Positions 10,554-23,999 of a stretch of 64,000 nt of DNA are shown here, piece by piece. The first letter of the stretch is position 1; every line of letters starts with the position of its first letter. A model generated the notes under the pieces. That model saw only the letters and a list, made by a program, of their open reading frames with translations, was not told where the DNA came from and did no database searches. A program made the position numbers and the translations under genes. The DNA comes from a virus (lineage: Duplodnaviria > Caudoviricetes): IMG/VR virus record IMGVR_UViG_3300034095_001474, positions 128,001 to 192,000 of that record. One strand, written 5' to 3'.

Positions 10554-11455
10554 TATTTATTAGTATTTGTAATCTCAGTAACAACACCTTTTATCATAAA
10601 TGATTTAATGTCTTGCCACTTTGTTATTTCATTGCTCATTACTGGCTTACCACCTTCTGGGTTTATCGCAATGGTTATGTGTGGTATTTCATTTTTGGAA
10701 TTAAACCCTTCAACTTGTACTGCCAAAGCCATATCAGATAACCCTAATTTGGTCACAGTAAGTACCACTTCTTTACCCAATTCAGATTTATCTTTCAACT
10801 CACCCAAATTTATTGTCATATGATGTGCAAATACTTTCCAATCTTGTGGTATCCATATACCCAACTTATCCATCAACGTACCTTTGGATTGTCCATCCAA
10901 CAATACACAAGAGTACAACACATCAGATTTTTTGTACATATCTTTAGATGCAAGTATTTTCTTTATGGTTAATGGACCAACAGATTTATGTGATTGTATC
11001 ATTTTTTGTATTTCAACCAATGGAACACCATGTGTATTTGATTCAGCTAATTGTTCAGCAGACAAACCTCTAGTACCCACATCAAATATTTGTATGTTGT
11101 TATCATCTAACCCCATTTCCAATGCTGCAACAACGTATGCTTTAGCACCATTAGCCTTTATGTTGGTGTTATCTATAACAACTGGCGTAATACCATCTTT
11201 AATAGATTTGATTGCGTTAGATAAGTTCTTAGAGTGCATTCTATTGAATGCTTTAGAATCGCCAGAAGTTTTTATCTTAGCAAAGAAACCTCTGTAATCA
11301 CCAGTCGCTGTTATAAGGTCATCAGTTGAATGGATAATACCGTCCAGCACAATAGACTTAGCCATTGTAGACTTTCCAGCACCTGGAATACCACGCATCA
11401 CAAACAATTCTTGTGTTGGTCTAGTTACATCGATATTTAATATATTCTTTTTCAT
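10553..11455 (-). CDS. P-loop polynucleotide kinase fused to a 2H cyclic phosphodiesterase (tRNA end-healing type)
   Basis: MRGIPGAGKST Walker A, IHSTDD, VIDNTN; C-terminal paired HHMTI and PHITI 2H motifs. Confidence 0.8.
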   Translation of the reverse strand: MKKNILNIDVTRPTQELFVMRGIPGAGKSTMAKSIVLDGIIHSTDDLITATGDYRGFFAKIKTSGDSKAFNRMHSKNLSNAIKSIKDGITPVVIDNTNIKANGAKAYVVAALEMGLDDNNIQIFDVGTRGLSAEQLAESNTHGVPLVEIQKMIQSHKSVGPLTIKKILASKDMYKKSDVLYSCVLLDGQSKGTLMDKLGIWIPQDWKVFAHHMTINLGELKDKSELGKEVVLTVTKLGLSDMALAVQVEGFNSKNEIPHITIAINPEGGKPVMSNEITKWQDIKSFMIKGVVTEITNTNK

Positions 11456-11492: not shown

Positions 11493-12425
11493 TTATTTAA
11501 TTATTTTAATAATACTAGGGTTATATATTACATAGTGTGTTGTGTCTCTATATTCATCACCAACCATAATACCATCAATACCTAACTTAACGCAATTCCT
11601 AACAAATCCAACACCATCATACCTATAAAAATCAATCCAAACTTGCAATAAAACATCTTTGTCATTATCATTATATTGAAAAGCAGATTGTAAAAATTTA
11701 ACTAACCCTTTAGGGTATGGGTAATCATAATTAACTACATCATCTTTCCAATCCTCAGCCATCATAACCAACTTTTTTACAATTGCTGGTGTAATGGTTA
11801 ATTTACCAACTTTATCACCATACATTATCCTAGGAGTTAACTCAACATTAAAAACTCTACCTTTTTCTCCAGCATATCCGTATGCTTCTTGTTCTGATGA
11901 TGTAAAATAAACACCAGGACCATTTTGGTCAGTTGCTTCTTTACCACCTACAAACTCATCGCTAAAACCAGAAAAATCATTAGGACTACCGTGGTATGCT
12001 ATTAAATTTAAATTTTTGTATTTGTCTTCACCTAATAAAGATTCTTTAAGCATCTTCTTAATTATTTTTTTTGTTTCGTTTTCTCCCATCATAAATTTTG
12101 AATTAGGGAATAGTACTATTTCACCAAACTTACCATCTGGATATTTTGTTATAATAGCATCATATCCCTTGCTCATTAGTATGTTAGTTAGTTTTTCACC
12201 TTTAGCTTTATATTGCTTAGCTAAATCTCTTTTATATTCTATTTGAGTATCATCAGTGATATCTATATATAAAGGGTTATTTATTATAGCTTTACCTTCA
12301 ATCCAACCGTCTGGTACAAAATTAGTATTTTGCCTAACATATGTACCTTTTGGTTCAACATCTTGACCAAACCTAGAACCCAATTTAGGTGCTGGTTCTG
12401 TATTTTTAATTATATTTAATTCCAT
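11493..12425 (-). CDS. Protein with an ADP-ribosyltransferase-like C-terminal domain
   Basis: AYHGSP...GPGVYFTSSEQEAYGYA...YVIYNP follows the H..Y pattern of phage ART-like domains. Confidence 0.5.
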   Translation of the reverse strand: MELNIIKNTEPAPKLGSRFGQDVEPKGTYVRQNTNFVPDGWIEGKAIINNPLYIDITDDTQIEYKRDLAKQYKAKGEKLTNILMSKGYDAIITKYPDGKFGEIVLFPNSKFMMGENETKKIIKKMLKESLLGEDKYKNLNLIAYHGSPNDFSGFSDEFVGGKEATDQNGPGVYFTSSEQEAYGYAGEKGRVFNVELTPRIMYGDKVGKLTITPAIVKKLVMMAEDWKDDVVNYDYPYPKGLVKFLQSAFQYNDNDKDVLLQVWIDFYRYDGVGFVRNCVKLGIDGIMVGDEYRDTTHYVIYNPSIIKIIK

Positions 12426-12441
12426 ACTAATAAATATTGTT

Positions 12442-13833
12442 TTATTCGTTAAAGATTTTTTTAACTGAACCATCTTCATATATCAAAATCAACACCCCTT
12501 TGGTGTTCAAATCAACATCAGTACCATATAAGTTAACGATACGAACAACAATACGTATTTTTTTAGAGTTATCGACAGAAATTATATCATGATTTTTAAA
12601 TTTACCATCATAATCAGTTTGTTTTAATCTATAATAAGTAACGTTATCGTTTAAATCGTAATCATCATACTCATAATAATTTTGTGTGTTAGAATTACCA
12701 GCACCATTTATTGTTGCTATATTATAGAAGATAACACCATCTTGTGTCTTTTCGATATTGAAATAATCATTGTTGATTTCACTAGCTGTTGACCAAGTTA
12801 AATGGTTGTATCTTTCATTAACCTCTGCTTCAAAATATAATAATTCAATTGGTAACGCAACTGGGTCGGCTAATCCAATTTTAATGTTAGCTCTTAAACC
12901 ACCTCTAACTCCATCAGCAGTTGGATATGAAGCATCTAAAACTTTATAAGCAACTGCATTTGTTTTTGGTGTATAATAAAACCACGGTTCATCACTTGAC
13001 CAACTATTATTACGATTTTCCCACTTAATAAGTAAATTATTTATATTGTTCCAAGGGAAAGGAGTTTGCAACACAATTTCAACCCACCCAACAGTCCAAT
13101 TTACAGTCCCATCATACACTAATGTATAATTTGAAGATACGTAATTTGTTTGAGCATTCTCTTTTACAGTAGAAGACGGAAATGATGATAATGTGGTATG
13201 ACCCATATAAATCTTTTGGTTTGTTGCCGTATAAGGAATTGATGTTGCTGGGTCAACTTGAAAACGGATTTTTGTAATATTACCAACAGTGTTAATTTCT
13301 GACTGGAGATAAATCATATCAGTCCAACCATGTTTATAATAATGATTTGATGGAACATTATAATCACTAACTTCTCCACCACCAATACTTACAATAGTAC
13401 CTCCACTAGAATTACCTTTTTGGTATTTGATACGTGCATTTATTCCATTAAGAGTAGCACACGTATTACTAGATGTCCATCTAGTAAGTAACACCGAATA
13501 AGTTCCAGAAGTTGAACAATACCAAGTTATTTCAGATTGTGTGTTATTATAATCATCACTCTCTGCTAATAAAGTACCACCAGTACCAGTTGAATATAAT
13601 CTAAGGTAGGTATCAACAGTTGTTTCACCTACTGTTGAAAATGTGTATTCACTACCAGCAGTGGCGGCAAAATTAAATGCTCTCCTACCAGAACTATAGG
13701 TTGTACTATATTGTATAGTAGTAGTTGGTGTTATTGCAACATTTGTATTTGCAGTATTGCAATATTGAGATAAGGAGAAATTACTCGATAAAACTAATAT
13801 AACTAGACTTAATAATATATTTAACTTTTTCAT
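12442..13833 (-). CDS. Secreted Bacteroidota-type surface protein (PPC-like domain, LPIELLYF Ig-like module, T9SS-like C-terminal domain)
   Basis: Signal peptide; VDTYLRLY...ESDD (PPC-like); ALPIELLYFEA...WSTASEINNDYFNIEK...YYRLKQTDYDG; C-terminal IVNLYG...GVLILIYEDGSVKK. Confidence 0.75.
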   Translation of the reverse strand: MKKLNILLSLVILVLSSNFSLSQYCNTANTNVAITPTTTIQYSTTYSSGRRAFNFAATAGSEYTFSTVGETTVDTYLRLYSTGTGGTLLAESDDYNNTQSEITWYCSTSGTYSVLLTRWTSSNTCATLNGINARIKYQKGNSSGGTIVSIGGGEVSDYNVPSNHYYKHGWTDMIYLQSEINTVGNITKIRFQVDPATSIPYTATNQKIYMGHTTLSSFPSSTVKENAQTNYVSSNYTLVYDGTVNWTVGWVEIVLQTPFPWNNINNLLIKWENRNNSWSSDEPWFYYTPKTNAVAYKVLDASYPTADGVRGGLRANIKIGLADPVALPIELLYFEAEVNERYNHLTWSTASEINNDYFNIEKTQDGVIFYNIATINGAGNSNTQNYYEYDDYDLNDNVTYYRLKQTDYDGKFKNHDIISVDNSKKIRIVVRIVNLYGTDVDLNTKGVLILIYEDGSVKKIFNE

Positions 13834-13886
13834 AACATATTGTTTATTATAAATATACACAAAAAATATTGAATAGCAATAAATAA

Positions 13887-14141
13887 TTAATCAATTTTTT
13901 TTAATACATCATCACCAAATTCTTCAACTAATTTATCTTTAGTTAAAAAATATGATTTTTCTTTACCATATATGTCATATTCAATAACGCAATATTTAGT
14001 TTGTTTTGATTTATAACCTTTGATTTTAATTATAATAAATTCATCATGACCACCATTATTTAAATGGTTTTGGTCAATCATGTTGATAACATTAACCTTT
14101 TTGTTATACACAAACAATTCTCTTTTATTTTCTTTACTCAT
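13887..14141 (-). CDS. Hypothetical protein
   Basis: Short ORF downstream of the tRNA array. Confidence 0.45.
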   Translation of the reverse strand: MSKENKRELFVYNKKVNVINMIDQNHLNNGGHDEFIIIKIKGYKSKQTKYCVIEYDIYGKEKSYFLTKDKLVEEFGDDVLKKID

Positions 14142-14190
14142 AATATTTTGTTTATACAAATATACTAAAAAAAATATTGGTTATCAATAG

Positions 14191-14276
14191 CGGAAGAAGT
14201 AGGTCTCGAACCCAATACGGTTTCCCGTACCAATTGATTAGCAATCAACGCTCACACCCCGATGAGTTCATCTTCC
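14191..14276 (-). tRNA. tRNA-Ser(GCT)
   Basis: Cloverleaf with anticodon loop TT-GCT-AA, long variable arm, TTCGAGA T-loop and G73. Confidence 0.9.
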
Positions 14277-14280
14277 ATTG

Positions 14281-14353
14281 TGACCCTACAGAGATTCGAA
14301 CTCCGATTCCACCCTTAGAAGGGGCGTGTCCTATCCAGTTGGACGATAGGGCC
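14281..14353 (-). tRNA. tRNA-Arg(TCT)
   Basis: GGCCCTA/TAGGGTC acceptor, CT-TCT-AA loop, TTCGAAT T-loop. Confidence 0.93.
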
Positions 14354-14356
14354 AGA

Positions 14357-14839
14357 TTATTTTAATCTTTGTAAATGTTCTTTAATTGAATCCTTTTGTT
14401 TCTTAACCCCTTTGAAACTAGGACCATTTTTATTTATAGGAACTTCTATTGTTTTAGGTGATTTATCACCTTTTAAATTTATTGTGTATTTCCTATCATC
14501 AGTAAATGTGATTTTATTGTTGGTCTTGTTTATTGGTTCAATTTCCATTTTTAATTTTGGACCATCACCAGATTTAATTCTATGTATTTGAACATCACCG
14601 TCATATTCACCTTGAATAATGTTGTTTAAATCACCATCATCACTTCTTTCTTTTGAAAATTGTTTTGCTTCAAAGTAATCATTTCTTATACCAATAACTT
14701 CACAATCACCACCAACAGTTGCTGATATCATATCATCATTATATTGACCACCAGATTCACCACATTCACATTTTCTCCATTTGGTGTGAACTAATCTTAC
14801 AATATCTTCACATTTTTTACATCTAATTAATTTACACAT
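14357..14839 (-). CDS. Hypothetical protein inside the tRNA array
   Basis: 160-aa ORF with CKKC/CECG motifs and its own ATATTTATA upstream motif. Confidence 0.65.
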   Translation of the reverse strand: MCKLIRCKKCEDIVRLVHTKWRKCECGESGGQYNDDMISATVGGDCEVIGIRNDYFEAKQFSKERSDDGDLNNIIQGEYDGDVQIHRIKSGDGPKLKMEIEPINKTNNKITFTDDRKYTINLKGDKSPKTIEVPINKNGPSFKGVKKQKDSIKEHLQRLK

Positions 14840-14880
14840 ATTTCAATCGTTTATTATAAATATAATATTAATTCGATTTG

Positions 14881-14953
14881 TACACCTACAGAGATTCGAA
14901 CTCCGATTTAACGCTTCGTAGGCGTTTGTCCTATCCAATTGGACGATAAGTGC
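14881..14953 (-). tRNA. tRNA-Arg(ACG)
   Basis: AACGC CT-ACG-AA GCGTT anticodon arm; D and T arms nearly identical to those of tRNA-Arg(TCT). Confidence 0.93.
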
Positions 14954-14959
14954 GTGTTG

Positions 14960-15032
14960 TAGCGATAACAAAACTCGAATTTGTAATTCTGCCTTATGAG
15001 AGCAGCGTGATAACCAGTTTCACCATATCGCC
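14960..15032 (-). tRNA. tRNA with CAT anticodon (elongator Met or Ile2)
   Basis: CTGCT CT-CAT-AA GGCAG arm; AU-rich T stem ACAAA/TTTGT. Confidence 0.8.
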
Positions 15033-15044
15033 ATTTGAAATTTG

Positions 15045-15119
15045 CGGGTCCAGTCAGACTCGAACTGACATCATCCTGGTTAACAGCCAGAAGTTTTATC
15101 CAATTAATACTACAGACCC
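15045..15119 (-). tRNA. tRNA-Asn(GTT), copy 3
   Basis: TCTGG CT-GTT-AA CCAGG arm, weak D stem, G73. Confidence 0.85.
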
Positions 15120-15128
15120 GTAGTTTTG

Positions 15129-15200
15129 CTCTTCGAGGGAATTTCGAAATCCCGACCTATCCGTTAACAGCGGAGTGCTCTGCCTCTGAGCTACCGAAGA
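15129..15200 (-). tRNA. tRNA-Asn(GTT), copy 2
   Basis: TCTTCGG/TCGAAGA acceptor, CT-GTT-AA loop, G73. Confidence 0.88.
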
Positions 15201-15208
15201 ATATTTGT

Positions 15209-15285
15209 TGGAGGACTAGGTGGGACTCGAACCCACGACTTTCGCATTAACAGTGCGGAGCTCTAACCAACTGAGCTACCAATCC
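15209..15285 (-). tRNA. tRNA-Asn(GTT), copy 1 (encoded CCA, atypical U73)
   Basis: GCTC AGTTGGTTA GAGC D arm, CT-GTT-AA loop, GTGGG TTCGAGT CCCAC T arm. Confidence 0.88.
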
Positions 15286-15295
15286 TTATTTTTTG

Positions 15296-15368
15296 TGCTC
15301 CCAGAGAATTACGATATCCCGACTTCCGCATTATGAGTGCGACACTCTGACCTCTGAGTTATGAGAGC
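15296..15368 (-). tRNA. tRNA with CAT anticodon (Ile2 or Met), non-canonical T-loop
   Basis: TCGCA CT-CAT-AA TGCGG arm; T-loop is ATCGTAA rather than TTCGAAT. Confidence 0.75.
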
Positions 15369-15962
15369 TTATTTGTTGTTAATTTTGTGATGTATTTCTC
15401 TATGACAATTTGCACATACCATAATACATTTATCTAATTCTACTTTAACCTTTTCCCACGATAATACAGAATATGAACCTATAGCAAAATCTTTTTCTTT
15501 TGGGTCTAAATGATGGAATTCTAATGCTGAATCACATCTATCATATCCACATTTTCCACAACAACCACCTTTATATTCAATAGCTTTTTCTTTTAACTTT
15601 TGACGGAAGTTTTTAACTTTTTGATAGTTTCTAATTTTTAACTCTTCATCACTTAATTTAACGTACTTATTATTTGTATGTTTAGTTACTGTTGATTTAC
15701 CTATGCTAAATTTAACCATACAATCCTCAATTGTATTATTTTTATAGAATTCATTTAACTCATATATTTCAAGTTCAGTTAATTTAACCCTTTGTTCACT
15801 AATTAGATTTCCACCTAAATTATTATTATTACAATGAAACGAAATAGTACTTTTGGTACAACCCAACACTTTAATAATTTCATTATAAGTTTTACCTTCG
15901 TTTCTCAACGATAATATATTTTCTTTTAAACTCGTAGCCATATCCATATCATGTTTTTTCAT
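15369..15962 (-). CDS. HNH homing endonuclease with an N-terminal HTH
   Basis: CCGKCGY...LEFHHLDP...LVCANCHREIH; its stop codon abuts the tRNA at 15368. Confidence 0.9.
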   Translation of the reverse strand: MKKHDMDMATSLKENILSLRNEGKTYNEIIKVLGCTKSTISFHCNNNNLGGNLISEQRVKLTELEIYELNEFYKNNTIEDCMVKFSIGKSTVTKHTNNKYVKLSDEELKIRNYQKVKNFRQKLKEKAIEYKGGCCGKCGYDRCDSALEFHHLDPKEKDFAIGSYSVLSWEKVKVELDKCIMVCANCHREIHHKINNK

Positions 15963-15999
15963 AAATATACTAAGAGTTCGAAAAAAGTCAAGTTATTTG

Positions 16000-16080
16000 T
16001 TGGGGTAATGGGATTTGAACCCACATTTGCAATAACCAGTTACGAATATACACGTTATCAGCGTGCCTCGATATACCCCA
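16000..16080 (-). tRNA. Atypical tRNA-Ile(GAT)-like RNA with no D arm and a long extra arm
   Basis: TGGGGTA/TACCCCA acceptor; GCACG CT-GAT-AA CGTGT anticodon arm; GTGGG TTCAAAT CCCAT T arm. Only 7 nt lie between acceptor and anticodon stems, and there is a 25-nt variable region. Confidence 0.6.
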
Positions 16081-16091
16081 AGATGATGGAA

Positions 16092-16280
16092 TTACTTCCA
16101 TCTTGTTTTTCTGTAGTGTTTCCAAGTTTTATACATTCTAACTTGATAACTCATTTTGTTTCCATAGAAACTAATACCTTCATCCCAATATATTGGGTAA
16201 AAATCATTGATTAACATGATTCGGTATTGTCTACTATTTTGTGCTTTGTTCAGTTTTGCTCTGTTAATGTTAATGCTCAT
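16092..16280 (-). CDS. Small basic hypothetical protein inside the tRNA array
   Basis: 62-aa ORF ending MYKTWKHYRKTRWK. Confidence 0.55.
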   Translation of the reverse strand: MSININRAKLNKAQNSRQYRIMLINDFYPIYWDEGISFYGNKMSYQVRMYKTWKHYRKTRWK

Positions 16281-16400
16281 AATGTTGTGAGTCTGTGAAT
16301 AGCAGACCTTACAACATATCAAATTTCTTTTTCATAGTTTTAAATTATTAGGTTATAACCTTATATTGTATCATTATTAGGTCTAGACCTAATAATCTTG

Positions 16401-16487
16401 CGGAGAGGGAGAGATTCGAACTCTCGGAACCCTTTCGGGTCCACTGGTTTTCAAGACCAGCACCATAAACCACTCGGACACCCCTCC
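16401..16487 (-). tRNA. tRNA-Ser(TGA)
   Basis: GGAGGGG/CCTCTCC acceptor, CT-TGA-AA loop, long variable arm, G73. Confidence 0.95.
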
Positions 16488-16493
16488 AGTTAG

Positions 16494-16564
16494 CACGACT
16501 AGTAGGATTCGAACCCACATCAAGGGATTTGGAGTCCCGTATGCTACCATTGCACCATAGTCGT
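16494..16564 (-). tRNA. tRNA-Trp(CCA)
   Basis: ACGACTA/TAGTCGT acceptor, CT-CCA-AA loop, G73. Confidence 0.93.
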
Positions 16565-16586
16565 GTATTTATTAATAACCAATACG

Positions 16587-16595
16587 TCAAAGAAC
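16587..16595 (-). promoter_or_regulatory. boxA-like antitermination element
   Basis: GTTCTTTGA in the spacer between tRNA-His and tRNA-Trp. Confidence 0.5.
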
Positions 16596-16603
16596 TTTTC
16601 TTT

Positions 16604-16679
16604 TGGGGTGACTGAGGAATTTCGAAATCCCGACCTCTAGAATCACAATCTAGCACTCTTCCTCTGAGCTACAGACACC
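16604..16679 (-). tRNA. tRNA-His(GTG)
   Basis: G-1:C73 pair, CTAGA TT-GTG-AT TCTAG arm, encoded CCA. Confidence 0.92.
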
Positions 16680-16850
16680 ATTTATTGTAACCATTATAAT
16701 AATGTTACCTTTTTCTTTTTTAAATCTTAGGTCACCGTTGTAACCCAAGTCTTTTGCTTTTTGTTTAAACTTATCAACTACTGCATCAAAGTCTTTTGTG
16801 AACTTATCCGCTTTTACCGTTCCGAGTGTTCTAACCAATTCTTCTTCCAT
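16650..16850 (-). CDS. Hypothetical protein whose last 10 codons overlap tRNA-His
   Basis: 66-aa ORF; its TAG stop lies within the tRNA-His anticodon stem. Confidence 0.55.
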   Translation of the reverse strand: MEEELVRTLGTVKADKFTKDFDAVVDKFKQKAKDLGYNGDLRFKKEKGNIIIMVTINGVCSSEEEC

Positions 16851-16863
16851 AACTTATAGGCAT

Positions 16864-16893
16864 AAAAAAAAGCCTTGATTGTAGTCAAGGCTT
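16864..16893 (-). terminator. Intrinsic terminator (attenuator) upstream of the tRNA array
   Basis: AAGCCTTGA-CTACAA-TCAAGGCTT followed by a run of T residues. Confidence 0.88.
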
Positions 16894-16918
16894 CTTTGTT
16901 AATATTATCTGGAGTGTT

Positions 16919-17017
16919 TTACCACTCTATGATGTCATTAAGCATACCTTGACCGTTATGGTGACTATTGCGTCTCCAATTCGAAATCGAAATCATATGT
17001 ATGTTAATTGTTCTCAT
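16919..17017 (-). CDS. Leader peptide MRTINIHMISISNWRRNSHHNGQGMLNDIIEW (putative attenuator uORF)
   Basis: 33 codons from ATG to TAA, lying between a promoter and a terminator. Contains GGTCAAGG, complementary to the terminator 5' arm. Confidence 0.8.
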   Translation of the reverse strand: MRTINIHMISISNWRRNSHHNGQGMLNDIIEW

Positions 17018-17067
17018 CGTTTTTATATTAAATATATTGTTTTTTCTAAAAGTTTTAATTTATACTA

Positions 17068-17098
17068 CAAATGTACGAACTTTATTTTGATTTGTCAA
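17068..17098 (-). promoter_or_regulatory. Bacteroidota-type promoter driving the leader and tRNA operon
   Basis: TTG-N20-TACATTTG. Confidence 0.78.
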
Positions 17099-17127
17099 GT
17101 TTTTTTGTAATTATTTTTATTTATTTT

Positions 17128-17571
17128 TTAAAATTTAACACCTCTACCTTGAACAACATCATTATCGGTAGGGTTTGATATAACTTTTGCTGAGAATAAA
17201 TAAATATCACTTAAACGCATTTCTTCATTAAAATCATCAGCAGCCTTTGCTTCAGCTTCTTCTGGGCTATTAGCTTCAATTTCATAAACCCAACTATGTT
17301 TATAACCACCATCTTTTTCAGCTTCTTTACCAATAACTTCAACTTTGAACTTATTTAAACTACTTAAATCTTCTGGTTCAATTTCTGGATTGATACCAAA
17401 TTCTTGTTGTCTAGAATACAATGGGTTTTCTTCTTCAAATTCGTTTATTTCATTTTCATCAATACGTTTGATTTTATTGAATGTTTTTGCAAATGACTCA
17501 ATTATCGCCTTTTCTTTTTCGGAAATAATTGCTTTTCTTTTTGCTTCTGTTAAAAATTCTTTCTTTTTCAT
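17128..17571 (-). CDS. Hypothetical protein (LTE/INE motifs, possible head-internal protein)
   Basis: 147-aa acidic ORF. Confidence 0.6.
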   Translation of the reverse strand: MKKKEFLTEAKRKAIISEKEKAIIESFAKTFNKIKRIDENEINEFEEENPLYSRQQEFGINPEIEPEDLSSLNKFKVEVIGKEAEKDGGYKHSWVYEIEANSPEEAEAKAADDFNEEMRLSDIYLFSAKVISNPTDNDVVQGRGVKF

Positions 17572-17591
17572 ATATGTTTGTTTTATTTATT

Positions 17592-19058
17592 TTATTTAAA
17601 CGTCTCTAAATTATCTATAAAATAATCTTTTAACCCTCTAAATGCAGAGAAACTTCTTTGTGAAGCTGAATATAATTTAGAATTAAAATTAGCTAATATG
17701 TTACTTTTAGTATCTAGTAATGATTGCTTCTTTTTCCCTAAATCAGCATTAGGGTTAACTTTTTTTATAAGATTTAAAATTTGCGTTAGTAATAAGTCTT
17801 CATCAACGTTATCCCAATCAAAAGCGATTGACAAACCTTTATTAGGGTCATTAGACCAACCTATATCAGCATCTTCTAACCCTTCAATAGCATCAATTAA
17901 ACTTTTATCATCAACATTTTCATAAATACCCATAATAGGACCTTCATTTACAGCATTACTTTTTGGTAATGATGCTTCTATAAACTCTGAAAATTCACCT
18001 TGATTTAAGCCACTAGGTACAGCGTTTTTGTTTATGTATGAAAACTTTTTATTATCACCATCAATATTCATAGTACAATTTATGTAAAAAATATTATCTA
18101 AATTAAAGTTTTTAAATTCATACAGACTTTCCATATTCCAAATCTCTCTAGCCGCTTCTTGATTTGCCATATCAGCTAATCTTTTAGGCATTCCACTTTC
18201 TTTAGATTTAGAGTTAGCAAAAATAAAGTTAGCTTCTTCTGGTGTTAATTCTGCGATATCACCTTCAAAATTTATAAAAAATTTAGATTTATGTGACTTA
18301 ACACCACCCTTGGCGTAGAAATCAATCATAGTGTTTTTAGTCCCTTGGTGTTGTTTAAATGGAGTCATAGGAATTCTTTCATATCCAAGTCCTCTCATGT
18401 CATCTGTAGCTATAGAACCTTCTTCACCACTGATACCATGTTTATCCCTTAATGCTGTAATTTCAGCATCTCTATCCGCTTTAGTTTTTACGTTATTCCA
18501 TTGTATAGTAAAACTTTTAGTAGAATAAACTTTAGATGGTATTGTGATGTCTTCCTTAGTTTCACTATCTTTATATTTTCTACCAGCATATGGATTGGTG
18601 TAAGTTGCTTTTCCAGGGCTTTTTGATTTTAATCCTCTAGCTGCTCTTTCTTGGTCTACTGCGTATTTGTTTTTAACTGCACTCCATTCTTCAGAACCAA
18701 CCATACTATCTAAATACCTTTTTAGTTTTGGGTTATCTAATTTGGCTGCAATCCCTTCAAATTCAGCTAAATTTTCTGGATTAATATTAACTGGTAATGA
18801 AGATGAACTAACATTATTAACATAACCAACTGTCATGAACCAACTATTATTTGGTTTGTATTTAGAAAACATTTTAAGTAATGTATCAACATTATCTGTT
18901 ACATCACCAAAAAATTCAGACATTGACGTTCTATCGGATTCATATAAATCTGATTCATCAATCATATTTTCTGTTATAAAACCTTTCGATTGTAAATACC
19001 TTTGTTCAGCTAACAAATTAGCTTTTTTTAAGTTTTTTGTTTTATCAATTCTTCTCAT
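17592..19058 (-). CDS. Hypothetical protein (possible head-internal protein)
   Basis: 488-aa ORF; N-terminus NLKKANLLAEQRYL...ITE. Confidence 0.7.
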   Translation of the reverse strand: MRRIDKTKNLKKANLLAEQRYLQSKGFITENMIDESDLYESDRTSMSEFFGDVTDNVDTLLKMFSKYKPNNSWFMTVGYVNNVSSSSLPVNINPENLAEFEGIAAKLDNPKLKRYLDSMVGSEEWSAVKNKYAVDQERAARGLKSKSPGKATYTNPYAGRKYKDSETKEDITIPSKVYSTKSFTIQWNNVKTKADRDAEITALRDKHGISGEEGSIATDDMRGLGYERIPMTPFKQHQGTKNTMIDFYAKGGVKSHKSKFFINFEGDIAELTPEEANFIFANSKSKESGMPKRLADMANQEAAREIWNMESLYEFKNFNLDNIFYINCTMNIDGDNKKFSYINKNAVPSGLNQGEFSEFIEASLPKSNAVNEGPIMGIYENVDDKSLIDAIEGLEDADIGWSNDPNKGLSIAFDWDNVDEDLLLTQILNLIKKVNPNADLGKKKQSLLDTKSNILANFNSKLYSASQRSFSAFRGLKDYFIDNLETFK

Positions 19059-19091
19059 TATAATATTTTTATTATAAATATGTAAAAATTA

Positions 19092-19535
19092 TTAAAAAAT
19101 CTCTGCTGTTATATAAGTAGTTGTAGTTTCAAAAAGTATTTCTCTTCGCTTTAACCAGTCCCCTATATTGTTAAGTGTTTTTAATTGTATACCCCAAATA
19201 TAATCAACTTGAAGTGTCTTTGGGTACTCTTTTAATTTGTTTCCCCAACCTTGCCCTCTGATTTCTTTATCAACAACCAACAACACACCTTCAATACCTT
19301 TTAACCCATCATATTTTTCGTTTGACCAGAATGAATATAATTGATTATTACCCAAAAGATACAACCCTTTTATTTTATCTTCGTCATCCAATATGATTGC
19401 TGATATATCCCAATTGGTTTCCTCTTCTATAATTGTAAAAAAATATTTTTTGTAGATAACATGTTTAAAATATTGAAAAGACCATTGCATGGCTTCTAAT
19501 CTCATTTCTTGTGGAATTCCGTATCTAATGTTCAT
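19092..19535 (-). CDS. GNAT-like acetyltransferase
   Basis: LLVVDKEIRGQGWGNKL acetyl-CoA binding motif. Confidence 0.6.
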   Translation of the reverse strand: MNIRYGIPQEMRLEAMQWSFQYFKHVIYKKYFFTIIEEETNWDISAIILDDEDKIKGLYLLGNNQLYSFWSNEKYDGLKGIEGVLLVVDKEIRGQGWGNKLKEYPKTLQVDYIWGIQLKTLNNIGDWLKRREILFETTTTYITAEIF

Positions 19536-20019
19536 AACCAGTAATTTCAAAAAATTGATAATCTCTTACTTTCCAAATTGAATCTAATTGTTGTATTGAA
19601 TATTTTATCTCACCCAACCATGGGTCTAAAACATTAAAAACATTTTCATCATACCCATTAACAATTATCCAGTGAGGAACACCTTTTGTTATTGTTCTAA
19701 GCATTGATACATTTCCACTATCTATGATTGTTCTTAGTAAATCATATGGGTGTGGCGATGATATGTATTCAATATAATTAAAATTTAATTTTTCCATACC
19801 TTTTTCCATTCTATCTGGTGGTGTACCTACAATCCAATCAGTACCACAAAAATGTGCGATATCTCTTATATCGTACTTCATTTCTATAAAACCATCAGAA
19901 TCTTTACACGTTCTGTAAATTATATTGTCTTTGTTCACCAAATAAAACCACACCATATAAATACATGTTGGTCCACATGTATTCCCAGTAGGTTGATAGA
20001 AATGTTTAATAGTTGTCAT
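19525..20019 (-). CDS. Peptidase C39-like cysteine protease
   Basis: YQPTGNTCGPTC (Q/C), PHWIIV (H), VLDPW (D). Confidence 0.75.
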   Translation of the reverse strand: MTTIKHFYQPTGNTCGPTCIYMVWFYLVNKDNIIYRTCKDSDGFIEMKYDIRDIAHFCGTDWIVGTPPDRMEKGMEKLNFNYIEYISSPHPYDLLRTIIDSGNVSMLRTITKGVPHWIIVNGYDENVFNVLDPWLGEIKYSIQQLDSIWKVRDYQFFEITGYEH

Positions 20020-20383
20020 TGAAGTCTTCGTCATAATAAGGTGAATCATCTTCATCGTCTTCTTCCTCATCAAAGTCATCATCTTCCTCACCAACGACAT
20101 TTTCCAATGTATCAAACCCTATAAAAACTCCAAATTCATCATTGAATAGTTTTTTAAATGTTTTTGCTTCATCATTTGTGATTTCATTAAAATCAATCTT
20201 AGATAATAAATCTTCACCACTAGAAAACTCCAACTCATCTTCACCCATATTGTGTGTAAATGGCCATGTGATGCTCAACGCTAATTCTTCGTATTCTTCG
20301 ACTTCTCTTTCTGTCATTACGATAAATCCGTTCACTTCAATCTCATCGATTGTGTCATTAAAAATTGCTAAAAATTTTGCCAT
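20006..20383 (-). CDS. Hypothetical acidic protein
   Basis: 125 aa with an Asp/Glu-rich tail. Confidence 0.6.
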   Translation of the reverse strand: MAKFLAIFNDTIDEIEVNGFIVMTEREVEEYEELALSITWPFTHNMGEDELEFSSGEDLLSKIDFNEITNDEAKTFKKLFNDEFGVFIGFDTLENVVGEEDDDFDEEEDDEDDSPYYDEDFNDNY

Positions 20384-20436
20384 AGTTTAAATAATAAAAA
20401 CATAATATAATGTTGTTTTAATAAAAATAAATATCT

Positions 20437-21552
20437 TTATAAAAGTTTTTTAAAGTTCTCTATTTCTAACTCAACAATTTTGTCACCCAATTCTTTGCTT
20501 GGTTTCAAATTGAACTCTTTCATTACTTCTTCACCACTAACTGTAAGTTCAAAGTCTTCCAACGCATTTAACAAATTTCCAGAAATCATATTACGAATTC
20601 CAAAGTTAAATAACTGTTCACTAGATATGTCACTTTTAATCAACGATTTTTTCAACGTAACAGCAGTATCTATTTGTTCAATAGTGTGCAGCGTTAATAA
20701 AAAACTTATTTTATTTATATCTGATGTTGGATGAGTCAATTTATTCAACTTTGTTGTTATAAAAGATAAATCATTATCTTTTAACAATGTAGCCAACACA
20801 AGTATTGGGTCTTTTTCATCAATAAAGTTTTTGTTAATAACCATGTTTGGGAATATCCAATCAAACAAATTAAACGTATCCAACAACTCCATAAACTTGA
20901 TTACAGATTTAGCTGATTTCAAACCTTTGATGAACTCATCTCTGATTCTTTCAGCTGATATACCTTCCAAGCTGCTATCTAGAATAAGTGTAAGTATTAT
21001 ATCTTTGGATAAAACACCATCAAATCTACTTACAAATCTTATCGCTCTAAGAATACGTAACCTATCTTCTTCAAATCTTTCAGCAGCATCACCAACAGTT
21101 CGTATTATACCCTTTTTAAGGTCTTCAACACCACCAACCATATCAACTATTTCAGATGTATCTAAATCAAAAAATAATGCATTAATCGTTAAATCTCGTC
21201 TCAATACGTCACCTTCTATTGTTGTAAATTTAACGCTGTCTGGTCTACGACCATCTGAACCAATATCCTCACGAAAAGTTGCAATTTCGAATTCATCTGT
21301 ATCTGTAAATACGTTGATAACACCGAAAGCTTTCCCAGTAGCAAGTGTTCTAAGACCAGCTTCTTCCATCATCGATTCAACCTTATCTGGAATAGCATCA
21401 GTAGCTAAATCCCAATCTTTTGGGACTTTTCCTAACAATGCATCACGTATGCTGCCACCAACGATAAATAATTTAAAACCGTTATCACTAAAGATACGGT
21501 GTATAATTTTAATATCGTTTGGTACTTCTAGTTCAAATTTTATTCTTTCCAT
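20437..21552 (-). CDS. cca: CCA-adding tRNA nucleotidyltransferase (class II)
   Basis: VGGSIRD...KDWDLAT, EIATFR, RRDLTINAL, EDRLRILRAIRF. A poly(A) polymerase assignment cannot be fully excluded. Confidence 0.85.
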   Translation of the reverse strand: MERIKFELEVPNDIKIIHRIFSDNGFKLFIVGGSIRDALLGKVPKDWDLATDAIPDKVESMMEEAGLRTLATGKAFGVINVFTDTDEFEIATFREDIGSDGRRPDSVKFTTIEGDVLRRDLTINALFFDLDTSEIVDMVGGVEDLKKGIIRTVGDAAERFEEDRLRILRAIRFVSRFDGVLSKDIILTLILDSSLEGISAERIRDEFIKGLKSAKSVIKFMELLDTFNLFDWIFPNMVINKNFIDEKDPILVLATLLKDNDLSFITTKLNKLTHPTSDINKISFLLTLHTIEQIDTAVTLKKSLIKSDISSEQLFNFGIRNMISGNLLNALEDFELTVSGEEVMKEFNLKPSKELGDKIVELEIENFKKLL

Positions 21553-21631
21553 AATACAAATGTAATCATTTTATTTTAATAAAACAAAAAAACCCAGACA
21601 AAAATCTGGGTTTAATTATTTTTTAATAAGA

Positions 21632-22048
21632 TTAGGCTACTTCAACTACTTCTAAATCGAAGATTAAGTCTTTACCAGCCAATGGGTGATTAGCATCCAA
21701 AACAACAGTGTTTTCTTTTATCTCTGCAACTACAACCATCATTTGACCTTGTGGTCCTTCAGCTGTTAATTGATGTCCAACTTCAACACCTTCTGGTACA
21801 AATTGTTTTTCCACTTCTTGAGTCATTTCTTCTCTGATTGGACCATAAGCTTCATCAGATGGAATAGTGATTGTTCTTTTCTCACCAGCTTTTAAACCTT
21901 GTAATCCTTTTTCAAATCCAGGGATTAATAAACCTTTCCCTAATTCAACCGCTAATGGGTCTCTACCTTCTGATGTGTCAAAAACTGTGTTGTCTTCTAA
22001 TCTTCCAGTGTAATGTACTTTAACATTACTGTTTTCTGTTACTGTCAT
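21632..22048 (-). CDS. slyD: FKBP-type peptidyl-prolyl isomerase (SlyD-like)
   Basis: VKVHYTGRL...FDTS...LIPGFEKGL...AYG...DANHPLAGKDLIFDLEVV. Confidence 0.93.
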   Translation of the reverse strand: MTVTENSNVKVHYTGRLEDNTVFDTSEGRDPLAVELGKGLLIPGFEKGLQGLKAGEKRTITIPSDEAYGPIREEMTQEVEKQFVPEGVEVGHQLTAEGPQGQMMVVVAEIKENTVVLDANHPLAGKDLIFDLEVVEVA

Positions 22049-22088
22049 ATTTTTTATTTAAGTTAAAATTATTTTAGCAAATATACGA

Positions 22089-22508
22089 TTAAATTTCTGG
22101 TTTGTCAACATAATTTACAGATATTTTTTTAAGTTCAATGATTTTATTCATATATTCAACATTTTTCACAGCATCTGTTGTTAAATTACCACGTAAATGA
22201 CTAAAGAATATATTGATAGCTTTGAAATGTTTGATTGAAACAGCTTCATCATTATGGTATATACTTTTAAAAAAGAAATAGTCTTTCCATGTTCTTTTTA
22301 AGTCATCACTACCATATCTAAACACTTTACGTACTGTTGATTCAGTAGTGTTATCACTTTTTATAGTTATTTTAGTAACGTATAATTCACCATCAACGTC
22401 AAATGGTATTATTTTGAATAATTCACTTTTTTTATTTTTGAATAAGTGTAATTCTGATTTAGTTAAATAATTTTTAACTTCTAATTGTTTTTCTTCTATA
22501 GTTTTCAT
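22089..22508 (-). CDS. Hypothetical protein
   Basis: 139-aa ORF downstream of the amber minigene. Confidence 0.55.
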   Translation of the reverse strand: MKTIEEKQLEVKNYLTKSELHLFKNKKSELFKIIPFDVDGELYVTKITIKSDNTTESTVRKVFRYGSDDLKRTWKDYFFFKSIYHNDEAVSIKHFKAINIFFSHLRGNLTTDAVKNVEYMNKIIELKKISVNYVDKPEI

Positions 22509-22591
22509 AATGTCTATGTTTTTAAATTTATTTTATAATTTTCGTAGTACTTGGACACGATGTCCTAGTAAATGTCCTAGTTAAAATAAAT

Positions 22592-22618
22592 TTAAGGAGG
22601 TGCTTTAATCTAATTCAT
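22592..22618 (-). other. Minigene ATG-AAT-TAG-ATT-AAA-GCA-CCT-CCT-TAA (M-N-amber-I-K-A-P-P)
   Basis: Read directly from the sequence; begins 11 nt after the stop codon of the Pth2-like gene. Confidence 0.6.
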
Positions 22619-22629
22619 AATCTATAGTT

Positions 22630-22974
22630 TTAGTTATTGTTATTTTTACCCAATAGAGGACACGAACTAGTAATTTTTTTACTAGCATCAGATGGTTCAA
22701 AAGCTATTGCGGTAATTTCGTTATTGATGTCTGGCTCTCGGAATATAGTATATTTAATTCCTCTGATTGCAGCTTTCTCTGAGAGTTTATATAACTCTTC
22801 CTCATTTGCTACTGTTAATAATGCCAAATAATTTGATTTTGTTTGCCATTCTGACGCTTCTTTAGGATGAGCGTGCTGAAAATCAATGGCAGCATGTGCT
22901 GATTGCACTGCTTGTGTTGGTAATGATAAGTCACGTCTTGTGACAACTCTTAATTTTGAAATCTAATTTTTCAT
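22630..22974 (-). CDS. Pth2-like peptidyl-tRNA hydrolase with an in-frame TAG at codon 4
   Basis: ATG AAA AAT TAG ATT TCA ... gives MKN*ISKLRVVTRRDLSLPTQAVQSAHA...W...L..V.....L......FREPDINNEITAIA. The conserved first strand lies upstream of the annotated GTG start at 22908. Confidence 0.75.
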
Positions 22975-23024
22975 TTTCTTTTTTATATAAATATATCACT
23001 TTTTTTAAAAAGGTAAACCTTTTG

Positions 23025-23095
23025 TGGTCTTAGAGGGAATCGAACCCTCACTATCGGTTTTAGAGACCGTTACGCTGCCGTTACATCATAAGACC
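23025..23095 (-). tRNA. Amber-suppressor tRNA (anticodon CTA)
   Basis: GGTCTTA/TAAGACC acceptor with A73; ACGGT CT-CTA-AA ACCGA arm; GAGGG TTCGATT CCCTC T arm. Confidence 0.9.
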
Positions 23096-23107
23096 AAATC
23101 TATAGTG

Positions 23108-23138
23108 CAAATATACTAAAGATTTTTTAATTTGTCAA
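23108..23138 (-). promoter_or_regulatory. Bacteroidota-type promoter of the tRNA-CUA gene
   Basis: TTG-N20-TATATTTG. Confidence 0.72.
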
Positions 23139-23140
23139 CT

Positions 23141-23413
23141 TTATTCTTCAGAATCTTCAACTCTATATGAATATTCTTCATTATTTATTTTATCTCTAAT
23201 AATATCTTTCTCAACTAATTCATCTGATAATGAGTCATAATACTGTTCATTTTGAGGTTTCATTTCAGATGAATTACCTTCTAGATAATCAATTATTTCA
23301 TCGTTGGTCAACTTTTCTAATTCTGGATATTCATCCAAATCAATTGTGATTGGTTCTCGTACAATATATGTTGTATACGACTCTGTTTGATAAATTTTAA
23401 CTTTTCTTCCCAT
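23141..23413 (-). CDS. Hypothetical acidic protein
   Basis: 90-aa ORF. Confidence 0.55.
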   Translation of the reverse strand: MGRKVKIYQTESYTTYIVREPITIDLDEYPELEKLTNDEIIDYLEGNSSEMKPQNEQYYDSLSDELVEKDIIRDKINNEEYSYRVEDSEE

Positions 23414-23418
23414 AGTTT

Positions 23419-23982: not shown

Positions 23983-23999
23983 TTTATTTTAGTTTTAAA

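What the first reader, a model, noticed from the sequence alone, without database searches (positions are those of the whole stretch)
16864..17098. Multi-tRNA-sensing leader-peptide attenuator controlling the phage tRNA operon
Seen in sequence: host-type promoter, then a 32-aa uORF, then an intrinsic terminator, then the tRNA array. The first 21 codons are ATG AGA ACA ATT AAC ATA CAT ATG ATT TCG ATT TCG AAT TGG AGA CGC AAT AGT CAC CAT AAC. All except ACA match tRNAs encoded downstream (His-GTG, Trp-CCA, Ser-TGA, Ile-GAT-like, two CAT, three Asn-GTT, Arg-ACG, Arg-TCT, Ser-GCT). The match reaches isoacceptor level: both Arg boxes (AGA, CGC), both Ser boxes (TCG, AGT) and both Ile types (ATT, ATA, assuming one CAT tRNA is lysidine-modified). 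Codons 22-24 hold GGTCAAGG (16954-16947), complementary to CCTTGACT in the terminator 5' arm, which gives an antiterminator. A second hairpin, GAGTG/CACTC, spans the stop. Established logic (trp/his attenuators): stalling in the leader frees the antiterminator. Inference: the phage senses loss of any of about 10 host tRNAs, such as through anticodon nucleases, and switches on replacements. I know of no described attenuator that matches a tRNA array this way. Stalling at codons 19-21 may itself cover the antiterminator, so the effective sensing window is uncertain.
Basis: partly seen in the sequence, partly recalled or inferred. Interest (0 to 1): 0.95.

Follow-up and report, generated by a model that had tools for sequence, protein, structure and literature searches.

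The report
Leader-peptide attenuator gating phage tRNA genes
A lake-water jumbo phage puts a tiny test gene, written in the codons read by the tRNA genes behind it, in front of a switchable transcription stop. It therefore probably makes that tRNA set only when ribosomes read those codons slowly, a control I could not find published for tRNA genes.

Summary
On the minus strand lie a Bacteroidota-type promoter, a 32-codon leader ORF, an intrinsic terminator, a small conserved ORF and a 12-tRNA array. The cassette recurs in 49 distinct uncultured phage contigs. The strand in codons 22-24 that pairs with the terminator 5' arm covaries with it (24 variants, up to 6 pair types per position). Codons 5-18 are about 100% readable by the array tRNAs, against a 27% background. 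That is exactly the window in which a stalled ribosome leaves the antiterminator free. The decisive test is that other tRNA arrays in this genome, in relatives and in published phage LR745206.1 each carry their own leader spelling their own amino acids. True leader-array pairings beat all 24, 24 and 720 permutations. Translation of the leader, response to tRNA supply and the physiological trigger (tRNA cleavage, host shut-off or simple feedback) remain untested. Exceptions exist: two relatives keep the leader but lack most or all of the array. Rfam and the literature library hold nothing comparable. This scan has noted and confirmed the same design before on other phage DNA.

The parts
17068..17098 (-). 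Promoter of the Bacteroidota type: -33 TTG(ACA) at 17098-17093 and -7 TACATTTG at 17075-17068. The predicted transcription start is near 17063.
   Evidence: TTG-N20-TAnnTTTG occurs 24 times in the window against 2.3 expected, 20 of them on the coding strand. The consensus and the G at -5 are described in PMC6847099. The same promoter heads every related cassette.
17018..17063 (-). A-rich 5' UTR of about 46 nt with no Shine-Dalgarno sequence and A at -3.
   Evidence: Read from the sequence. Only 4 of 58 long ORFs in the window have an SD-like motif. Bacteroidota initiate without SD (PMC6847099).
16919..17017 (-). Leader ORF of 32 codons plus TAA: MRTINIHMISISNWRRNSHHNGQGMLNDIIEW.
   Evidence: The ORF is intact in 49 distinct related contigs, and gaps inside it are multiples of three.
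16964..17005 (-). Proposed sensing window, codons 5-18 (N I H M I S I S N W R R N S). Each codon is readable by a tRNA species of the downstream array.
   Evidence: The array-readable fraction is 0.88-1.00 at codons 5-18 and falls to 0.24-0.41 at codons 20-22 and 0.24 at codon 3 (background 0.27). The antiterminator survives a ribosome mask at A-site codons 1-18 only.
16946..16954 (-). Antiterminator 5' strand (region 2), GGTCAAGGT, in codons 22-24.
   Evidence: It pairs with 16891-16883. There are 24 distinct 9-mers across relatives, with matching changes in the terminator arm.
16943..16946 (-). Invariant TATG directly after region 2. Its role is unexplained (pause site or pairing partner).
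   Evidence: Invariant columns in alignment A1. Also seen in other leader classes.
16912..16927 (-). Apical hairpin GAGTG / CACTC with the stop codon in its loop.
   Evidence: An apical hairpin at or next to the stop codon is found in 48 of 49 relatives.
16883..16954 (-). Complete antiterminator: one long imperfect hairpin. Its 5' strand is codons 22-32 and its base is the helix between region 2 and the terminator 5' arm.
   Evidence: -21.2 kcal/mol with z = -3.95 for the window, and mean z = -4.1 over 49 sequences.
16864..16893 (-). Intrinsic terminator: arms AAGCCTTGA (16893-16885) and TCAAGGCTT (16878-16870), loop CTACAA, and a T run of 8 at 16871-16864, whose first two T also close the 3' arm.
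   Evidence: A terminator lies 19-38 nt after the leader stop in every relative. Seven of its 5'-arm bases are shared with the antiterminator.
16650..16850 (-). First gene behind the terminator: a 66-aa ORF for a conserved protein of about 56 aa and unknown function. Here its end runs 29 nt into tRNA-His.
   Evidence: Present behind 35 of 49 type-4 terminators. 67 homologues, none named. The AlphaFold model has pLDDT 82 and a beta-alpha-alpha-beta-beta order, with no significant fold match.
14190..16678 (-). tRNA array, in order: His-GTG, Trp-CCA, Ser-TGA, aberrant Ile-GAT-like, [HNH ORF], CAT, Asn-GTT x3, CAT, Arg-ACG, [160-aa ORF], Arg-TCT, Ser-GCT.
   Evidence: ARAGORN, Rfam and the anticodons read. 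The same set follows the leader in nearly all relatives.

Best explanation
This is a ribosome-mediated transcription attenuator that gates a phage tRNA operon.

Transcription starts at a host (Bacteroidota-type) promoter. A ribosome then translates a 32-codon leader. Codons 5-18 sample the ten codon families read by the tRNAs encoded downstream: ATA, CAT, ATG, ATT, TCG, AAY, TGG, AGA, CGN and AGY.

- Fast decoding: the ribosome moves onto codons 19-33 while RNA polymerase makes the terminator. This occupies or melts the 5' strand and apex of a long antiterminator hairpin, so the terminator forms and the array stays off.
- Slow decoding: if any sampled codon is read slowly because its aminoacyl-tRNA is scarce, the ribosome lingers in codons 5-18. 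The antiterminator forms first and sequesters the terminator 5' arm. Polymerase then reads into the small ORF and the tRNA genes.

The result is negative feedback on tRNA supply. No conserved anti-antiterminator is seen, so an untranslated leader should also read through (default ON when translation fails).

Shown here: the anatomy, the mutually exclusive helices with covariation, and the match between leader codons and array content across several leader classes and genomes. Inferred: that the leader is translated, the kinetic coupling, and the physiological trigger.
For: 1. The cassette is conserved in 49 distinct contigs. All 15 distinct leaders in the ascertainment-free subset (the window plus loci reached only through the neighbouring protein) keep TCG ATT N6 TGG AGA CGN AAT AGY.
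2. The 2:3 helix covaries. At positions 3-8 before TATG, 86-100% of sequences are paired, with 3-6 pair types per position. There are 24 distinct region-2 9-mers. A leader's duplex with its own terminator averages -13.6 kcal/mol against -9.4 with other terminators. Region-3 bases are shared with the terminator in up to 49 of 49 sequences.
3. The antiterminator is one long hairpin with the stop codon at its apex in 48 of 49 sequences, mean z = -4.1.
4. Codons 5-18 are array-readable in 88-100% of leaders against a 26.7% background. The variable positions 8, 9, 12 and 13 swap only among array-readable codons. Codons 20-22 return to background.
5. Ribosome-mask folding puts the last permissive stall at codon 18, the same boundary.
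6. Rare codons are fixed. TCG is 3% of Ser codons and CGC is 0.2% of Arg codons in this phage. Codons 15-16 are always AGA then CGN, one from each Arg box.
7. Other arrays have their own matched leaders. These are Cys/Val/Leu, Phe/Glu/Asp/Ala and Pro/Gln/Tyr/Thr/Gly/Lys in G002, G004 and G005, two of them also in this genome (L233). Phage LR745206.1 has six cassettes with a different partition. The true pairing is the best of 24, 24 and 720 permutations.
8. The suppressor tRNA and the tmRNA in the window lie directly behind promoter motifs (their promoters end 13 and 73 nt upstream), which leaves no room for a leader-terminator cassette.
Against: - No experiment or usable transcript data exist. 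Contigs from four freshwater RNA libraries cover the leader of relatives, but they cannot separate RNA from DNA or show transcript ends.
- At equilibrium the terminator always wins, so the switch must be kinetic.
- The stop codon lies 26 nt after region 2. A terminating ribosome therefore does not cover region 2, and the model needs a steric or timing argument.
- The order W-R-R-N-S, AGA-CGN and TATG are more invariant than a codon-set sensor requires. A peptide-level or RNA-level constraint is not excluded.
- Exceptions exist. L001/G006 and L002 keep the leader and terminator but lack most or all of the array. L114, L119 and L179 lack a detectable Arg-ACG tRNA yet keep CGT in the leader.
- In this genome the Ile-GAT tRNA is aberrant.
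- A promoter-like site at 15991-15964 could feed the distal half of the array.
Confidence: 0.78

Rival explanations
1. The same attenuator exists, but its natural signal is amino-acid starvation (uncharged tRNA) as in trp or his operons, not tRNA abundance or integrity. The tRNA genes are then just cargo expressed under starvation.
For: The device reads aminoacyl-tRNA supply and cannot by itself tell a missing amino acid from a missing tRNA. This follows from the established logic of leader-peptide attenuation. All structural evidence fits both readings.
Against: Extra tRNA does not relieve amino-acid starvation. Each leader is matched to the tRNA species behind it, down to isoacceptor boxes: AGA plus CGN, TCG plus AGY, ATA plus ATT here, and TTA/CTT/TTG/CTA in the Leu leader. 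That is the signature of regulating tRNA supply. tRNA repair genes lie next to the arrays.
Confidence: 0.1
2. The conserved N-terminal peptide (NIHMISISNWRRNS) is a sequence-specific arrest peptide. It stalls the ribosome in response to a small molecule or factor, and the match to the array is secondary.
For: The order W-R-R-N-S is invariant. Ser at codon 18 switches box (AGY to TCT) while staying Ser in six divergent leaders. That looks like selection on the amino acid.
Against: - Rare codons are fixed and the AGA-CGN split is invariant.
- Variable positions make radical amino-acid swaps (M/R/I and I/N/H/M) yet never leave the array-readable set.
- Unrelated leader sequences upstream of other arrays follow the same rule. 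One arrest motif cannot explain this.
Confidence: 0.05
3. The attenuator mainly controls the small conserved protein (16850-16650) or, by read-through, the tRNA repair genes. The tRNA array merely lies in the same transcription unit.
For: The small ORF follows the terminator in 35 of 49 type-4 cassettes. In L001/G006 and L002 the leader is retained while the array is absent or reduced, and kinase-CPD and RNA ligase genes follow.
Against: Type-4 cassettes without the small ORF run straight into tRNA-Trp (L011, L012). Most cassettes of the other leader classes have their first tRNA within about 20-100 nt of the terminator, with no room for an intervening gene of that size. The codon match is to the tRNAs, not to any protein. 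The repair genes have promoter motifs of their own.
Confidence: 0.05
4. It is an ordinary terminator ending an upstream transcript, plus a chance short ORF. The array is transcribed from elsewhere.
For: AT-rich DNA is full of short ORFs and promoter-like hexamers. One promoter-like site lies inside the array.
Against: The ORF, terminator and their complementary strand are conserved and covary in 49 contigs. The composition match has P about 1e-8 and recurs for other arrays. No consensus promoter lies between the terminator and tRNA-His.
Confidence: 0.02

Closest known systems
Multivalent leader-peptide attenuators of enterobacterial amino-acid operons (ilvGMEDA with Leu/Val/Ile codons; thr with Thr/Ile codons)
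   Same: A promoter-proximal short ORF carries regulatory codons for several amino acids. Antiterminator and terminator hairpins are mutually exclusive, and the ribosome's position decides the outcome. (Own knowledge of these systems; the features here are shown.)
   Different: - The cargo is tRNA genes, not biosynthetic enzymes.
- Up to ten different tRNA species are sampled, mostly once or twice each, instead of runs of one to three amino acids.
- No conserved 1:2 pause or anti-antiterminator hairpin is present.
- The stop codon sits at the apex of the antiterminator.
- Initiation is SD-less and the promoter is Bacteroidota-type.
- Several such leaders together partition all 20 amino acids within one phage genome.
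trpL, hisL, leuL and pheL single-amino-acid attenuators, and the pheST leader
   Same: The kind of switch is the same. pheST shows that a component of the translation apparatus can be controlled this way (own knowledge).
   Different: Those use one amino acid in tandem codons, and a four-region architecture in which the leader stop lies in or beside region 2. Here the stop lies 26 nt past region 2 and there is no region 1. No Rfam leader family matches.
T-box riboswitches
   Same: They sense tRNA status and choose between a terminator and an antiterminator.
   Different: T-boxes bind one uncharged tRNA directly, have no leader ORF, and control synthetase and amino-acid genes. No T-box or other Rfam family hits 16860-17100 even at E up to 1.
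Phage tRNA arrays (T4, T5, huge phages such as LR745206.1)
   Same: Clustered phage tRNA genes interspersed with homing endonucleases, next to tRNA repair enzymes.
   Different: To my knowledge, published accounts treat these arrays as codon-usage compensation or as replacements for degraded or cleaved host tRNAs. I found no report of leader-peptide control in eight searches of the paper library. That library omits most subscription journals.

Membership tests
Ribosome-mediated leader-peptide transcription attenuator | A short ORF with start and stop codons lies between the promoter and the regulated genes. | tested here: met
   32 codons at 17017-16919. Intact in 49 relatives, with gaps in multiples of three inside the ORF.
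Ribosome-mediated leader-peptide transcription attenuator | The leader is enriched in regulatory codons that relate to the regulated genes. | tested here: met
   Codons 5-18 are about 100% array-readable against a 26.7% background. The match recurs for other arrays and beats all permutations.
Ribosome-mediated leader-peptide transcription attenuator | An intrinsic terminator lies between the leader and the first regulated gene. | tested here: met
   Located at 16893-16864. A terminator is present 19-38 nt after the leader stop in all relatives.
Ribosome-mediated leader-peptide transcription attenuator | An antiterminator is mutually exclusive with the terminator and is placed so that a ribosome stalled at the regulatory codons leaves it free. 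| tested here: met
   Compensatory covariation and shared bases. The mask analysis allows codons 1-18 and blocks codons 19-28.
Ribosome-mediated leader-peptide transcription attenuator | An anti-antiterminator or pause hairpin (1:2) terminates transcription when the leader is not translated. | tested here: not met
   RNAalifold finds no conserved structure in codons 1-24. The only candidate is an untestable 6-bp ACAUAC/GUAUGU complementarity between invariant blocks. This feature defines the trp/his subtype, not the class as a whole.
Ribosome-mediated leader-peptide transcription attenuator | The leader is translated, and read-through rises when cognate aminoacyl-tRNA is limiting. | not testable with these tools
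   No cultured phage-host pair is available. Contigs from RNA libraries are uninformative.
T-box riboswitch | Stem I with a specifier loop, plus the conserved T-box sequence in the antiterminator bulge. | tested here: not met
   No RF00230 or any other Rfam hit in 16860-17100 at E up to 1.
Rfam leader families (Trp, His, Leu, Thr, Bacteroid-trp and similar) | A match to the curated covariance model. | tested here: not met
   cmscan of 12000-28000 against all 4227 families returns only tRNA, tmRNA and chance-level hits.

The most novel reading that the evidence does not exclude
The leaders of one phage together form a genome-wide monitor of decoding capacity. Four of them partition all 20 amino acids in this lineage, and six do so differently in LR745206.1. 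This monitor would work as an alarm for tRNA damage. When host anticodon nucleases or host shut-off remove a tRNA species, or when translation collapses altogether (default ON, as there is no 1:2 hairpin), the matching operon is derepressed. It would act together with the adjacent heal-and-seal enzymes (Rnl1-like and Rnl2-like ligases, kinase-CPD, CCA-adding enzyme). In some relatives these enzymes now sit directly behind the same leader. That would make it a regulated counter-defence regulon rather than simple supply feedback.
Probability: 0.35. Interest if true: 0.95.

Novelty: new variant of a known kind. Interest (0 to 1): 0.88.

Why it matters
tRNA genes are generally thought to be controlled at the promoter (growth rate, stringent response), and phage tRNA arrays are treated as constitutive cargo. 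Here each tRNA block appears to be under feedback from the decoding speed of its own codons. The mechanism is the textbook attenuator, re-used for a new purpose.

If confirmed, this has several consequences:
- It explains how large phages dose dozens of tRNAs.
- It gives a direct genomic read-out of which tRNA species a phage treats as limiting or vulnerable.
- It links tRNA arrays to tRNA-targeting host defences and to repair enzymes.
- It offers compact, modular, codon-specific sensors of aminoacyl-tRNA supply for synthetic biology.

The conserved cassette is also a useful annotation marker, and it points to Bacteroidota hosts for this group of uncultured lake phages.

Tried and rejected
- Close cultured relatives: megablast of the region against 50,697 phage records gave only a tRNA-Asn fragment, so no host is named.
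- Own genome: not held. I reached 7.7 kb beyond the window through an identical contig, L233. I did not reach the fourth array about 20 kb away and verified that leader class only in relatives.
- Genome collection scan with the leader pattern: 3 hits, about the number expected by chance. One (L069) is a true cassette on a 20-kb contig binned as a gammaproteobacterium, probably phage DNA.
- Two looser pattern scans gave mostly chance hits but did yield six divergent leaders.
- 1:2 hairpin: none conserved.
- Equilibrium folding with ribosome masks never gives the antiterminator once the 3' arm exists. Only the pre-3'-arm state is informative.
- RNA evidence: four freshwater RNA-library runs hold pieces of relatives' leaders. 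These are assembled contigs, include promoter sequence, and cannot show ends or strand. This is inconclusive.
- Small protein behind the terminator: no Pfam or PHROG family and no significant fold match in PDB or AlphaFold clusters.
- A second run of 10 array-readable codons at 16289 lies at the start of an ordinary small basic ORF, not in a leader.
- Preference for wobble-read codons as the rationale for codon choice: rejected as a general rule, because codon 5 is AAC while codon 17 is AAT.

Full report
**1. What is there**

All features lie on the minus strand.
- A promoter: TTGACA at 17098-17093 and TACATTTG at 17075-17068.
- An A-rich 46-nt leader without a Shine-Dalgarno sequence.
- A 32-codon ORF at 17017-16919.
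- A small hairpin whose loop holds the stop codon: GAGTG at 16927-16923 and CACTC at 16916-16912.
- An intrinsic terminator: arms at 16893-16885 and 16878-16870, and a run of eight T at 16871-16864 whose first two T also close the 3' arm.

GGTCAAGG in codons 22-24 (16954-16947) is complementary to CCTTGACT (16890-16883). Seven bases of that stretch belong to the terminator 5' arm.

Behind the terminator come, in order:
- a 66-aa ORF (16850-16650);
- His-GTG, Trp-CCA, Ser-TGA;
- an aberrant GAT-anticodon tRNA;
- an HNH endonuclease gene;
- a CAT tRNA, three Asn-GTT, a second CAT, Arg-ACG;
- a 160-aa ORF;
- Arg-TCT and Ser-GCT.

**2. Host type**

- The motif TTG-N20-TAnnTTTG occurs 24 times in the window against 2.3 expected. 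None of 100 shuffles reaches 24, and 20 of the matches are on the coding strand.
- Only 4 of 58 long ORFs have an SD-like motif.
- Both properties are hallmarks of Bacteroidota (PMC6847099). With G at -5, that paper's consensus puts the start near 17063.
- The missing SD is therefore no argument against translation. The leader also has A at -3.
- The DNA recurs in lake-water metagenomes from 20 studies. The contig carrying the window's own 66-aa protein is 304 kb long.

**3. More than chance**

- Codons readable by the array tRNAs make up 26.7% of codons in the phage's long ORFs.
- Fourteen of fourteen for codons 5-18 has P about 9e-9.
- The leader holds the only long run of such codons in all six frames of the window.
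- The leader uses codons that are rare in this phage. TCG is 3% of Ser codons and CGC is 0.2% of Arg codons.

**4. Conservation**

- Searching with the neighbouring 147-aa protein found 15 related viral contigs, and every one carries the cassette. In this ascertainment-free subset (the window plus those loci), all 15 distinct leaders keep TCG ATT N6 TGG AGA CGN AAT AGY.
- Pattern scans raised the set to 49 distinct sequences. Some lie on contigs of 190-370 kb.
- Gaps inside the ORF are multiples of three. Gaps after the stop are not.

**5. The switch is real**

- Every relative has a terminator 19-38 nt after the leader stop.
- The 8-12 nt just before an invariant TATG pair with the terminator's 5' arm in all 49 sequences. 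There are 24 different 9-mers.
- At the six central positions, 86-100% of sequences are paired, using three to six different standard pair types per position. The same arm bases also pair in the terminator.
- A leader pairs better with its own terminator than with others: -13.6 against -9.4 kcal/mol.
- When the 3' arm is left out, the stretch from region 2 to the 5' arm folds into one long hairpin. The mean z-score is -4.1, and the apex lies at or beside the stop codon in 48 of 49 sequences.
- RNAalifold finds no conserved structure in codons 1-24. There is thus no trp-like 1:2 hairpin, and an untranslated leader should read through.

**6. The sensing window**

- Aligned on the Trp codon, the array-readable fraction is 0.88-1.00 at codons 5-18.
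- It is 0.78 at codon 19, 0.24-0.41 at codons 20-22 and 0.24 at codon 3.
- Positions 8, 9, 12 and 13 vary through radical amino-acid swaps (M/R/I; I/N/M/H/S; S/N/M/I) but never leave the set.
- Codons 15-16 are always AGA then CGN, one from each Arg box.
- Folding with a ribosome footprint, before the 3' arm exists, keeps the antiterminator for A-site codons 1-18 and loses it for codons 19-28. Two independent lines therefore give the same boundary.

**7. The decisive comparison**

The tRNA set behind this leader is nearly constant across relatives: His, Trp, Ser-TGA, Ile-GAT, CAT, Asn, Arg-ACG, Arg-TCT and Ser-GCT. Variation had to be sought in other arrays.

In relatives G002, G004 and G005, three further arrays each have the same promoter-leader-terminator layout:
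- Cys/Val/Leu behind a leader rich in L, V and C, which uses TTA, CTT, TTG and CTA;
- Phe/Glu/Asp/Ala behind FDFAFEFAAEAD;
- Pro/Gln/Tyr/Thr/Gly/Lys behind TTTTYTGKQYPQGKQG.

With the present class, these partition all 20 amino acids.

A contig identical to the window over a 2.2-kb overlap (L233) shows the Cys/Val/Leu and Phe/Glu/Ala cassettes in this very genome.

The published 634-kb phage LR745206.1 partitions its 61 tRNAs differently. Its six leaders follow that partition:
- His/Phe/Trp/Lys
- Arg/Ser
- Glu/Tyr
- Ile-TAT/Gly/Met/Ala
- Asn/Arg/Leu/Val/Ile/Thr/Met
- Pro/Asp/Gln

Scoring codons 4-18 of each leader against each array, the true assignment is the single best of 24, 24 and 720 permutations.

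**8. Mechanism and its weak points**

The best reading is feedback attenuation. Slow decoding of any sampled codon holds the ribosome in codons 5-18, the long antiterminator forms first, and polymerase reads into the array. Fast decoding puts the ribosome on the antiterminator's 5' strand and apex, so the terminator forms.

Weak points:
- The terminator is always the equilibrium structure, so the choice must be kinetic.
- The stop codon lies 26 nt past region 2. A terminating ribosome blocks the hairpin's apex, not its base.
- The order W-R-R-N-S and the TATG are invariant beyond what a codon-set sensor needs.
- The Ile-GAT tRNA of this genome lacks a D arm.
- A promoter-like site precedes the HNH gene inside the array.
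- L114, L119 and L179 show no Arg-ACG tRNA but keep CGT.
- Two relatives keep the leader but not most of the array. In L001/G006 the leader is followed by a 63-aa ORF and then by kinase-CPD, NUDIX, Rnl1-like and Rnl2-like genes. That 52-kb fragment has no tRNA above the Rfam cut-off.
- RNA-library contigs cover relatives' leaders but prove nothing.

**9. Context**

The window also encodes the following:
- Rnl2-like and Rnl1-like RNA ligases;
- a kinase-CPD fusion;
- a CCA-adding enzyme;
- a PTH2-like hydrolase;
- ClpP;
- a tmRNA;
- a CTA suppressor tRNA.

This fits a phage for which tRNA damage is a recurrent problem. It does not show that damage is the signal.

**10. Comparison and novelty**

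- In mechanism, this works like the multivalent ilvGMEDA and thr attenuators.
- It meets the class-defining features that can be tested on sequence. It lacks the 1:2 hairpin of the trp/his subtype. It is not a T-box or any Rfam family.
- New features are the cargo (tRNA genes), the one-to-one sampling of up to ten tRNA species, the apex-stop architecture, and the partition of the whole code among a phage's leaders.
- Eight searches of the paper library found no description. That library omits most subscription journals.
- Earlier notes of this scan describe the same design in many other phage genomes, and follow-up agents confirmed several. Those notes are unpublished and unreviewed. I used them as leads and re-tested what I cite.

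Noticed in passing
window 16000-16080 (-): This tRNA-like gene has a GAT anticodon loop and canonical acceptor and T arms. Only about 6 nt stand where the D arm should be, and a D-loop-like GTAACTGGTTATTGC sits in a 25-nt extra arm. Only Rfam detects it (40 bits). Relatives have a normal Ile-GAT tRNA at this place.
   Followed up: partly
window 15369-15962 (-), with a promoter-like site at 15991-15964: An HNH homing-endonuclease gene (PHROG 2255, E = 5e-30) is inserted in the array between the Ile-like tRNA and the CAT tRNA. Its promoter-like site could transcribe the distal tRNAs independently of the attenuator.
   Followed up: partly
window 16650-16850 (-): A conserved protein of about 56 aa (motif ELVR.LG...FD.IVDKY..KA...GY.GEL.F.KE.G..IFV) is the first gene behind 35 of 49 type-4 terminators. 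The confident AlphaFold model has a beta-alpha-alpha-beta-beta order. There is no family or fold match.
   Followed up: partly
L001 1239-5771 (contig G006) and L002 6555-12279: These relatives have an intact type-4 leader and terminator, but the array is missing (L001) or reduced to one tRNA-Ser (L002). The next genes are kinase-CPD, NUDIX, Rnl1-like and Rnl2-like tRNA repair enzymes.
   Followed up: partly
L007 5015-5110 and 6575-6673: Two tandem type-4 cassettes lie 1.5 kb apart in one contig. Each has its own promoter, leader, terminator and small-protein gene.
   Followed up: no
window 3267-4331, 7632-8789, 10553-11455 and 20437-21552 (-): A tRNA repair set is present: Rnl2-type ligase (PF09414), T4 Rnl1-type ligase (PF09511), a kinase plus fungal-tRNA-ligase CPD domain fusion, and a CCA-adding enzyme.
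   Followed up: partly
window 22630-23095 and 25925-27144 (-): A PTH2-like peptidyl-tRNA hydrolase lies just downstream of a CTA (amber suppressor) tRNA, and a phage tmRNA lies just downstream of clpP. The suppressor tRNA and the tmRNA lie directly behind promoter motifs, with no room for a leader cassette.
   Followed up: no
window 16943-16946 (-), and the same place in L233, L228 and L220: TATG directly after the antiterminator 5' strand is invariant in 49 type-4 leaders and recurs in other leader classes. It is complementary to the invariant ACATAC in codons 5-7 and to ATAACA before the terminator. Its role is unknown.
   Followed up: partly
L233 5410-5484: The Cys/Val/Leu leader of this genome ends in TAG, while the phage encodes a CTA suppressor tRNA. 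Read-through of that stop would lengthen the leader.
   Followed up: no
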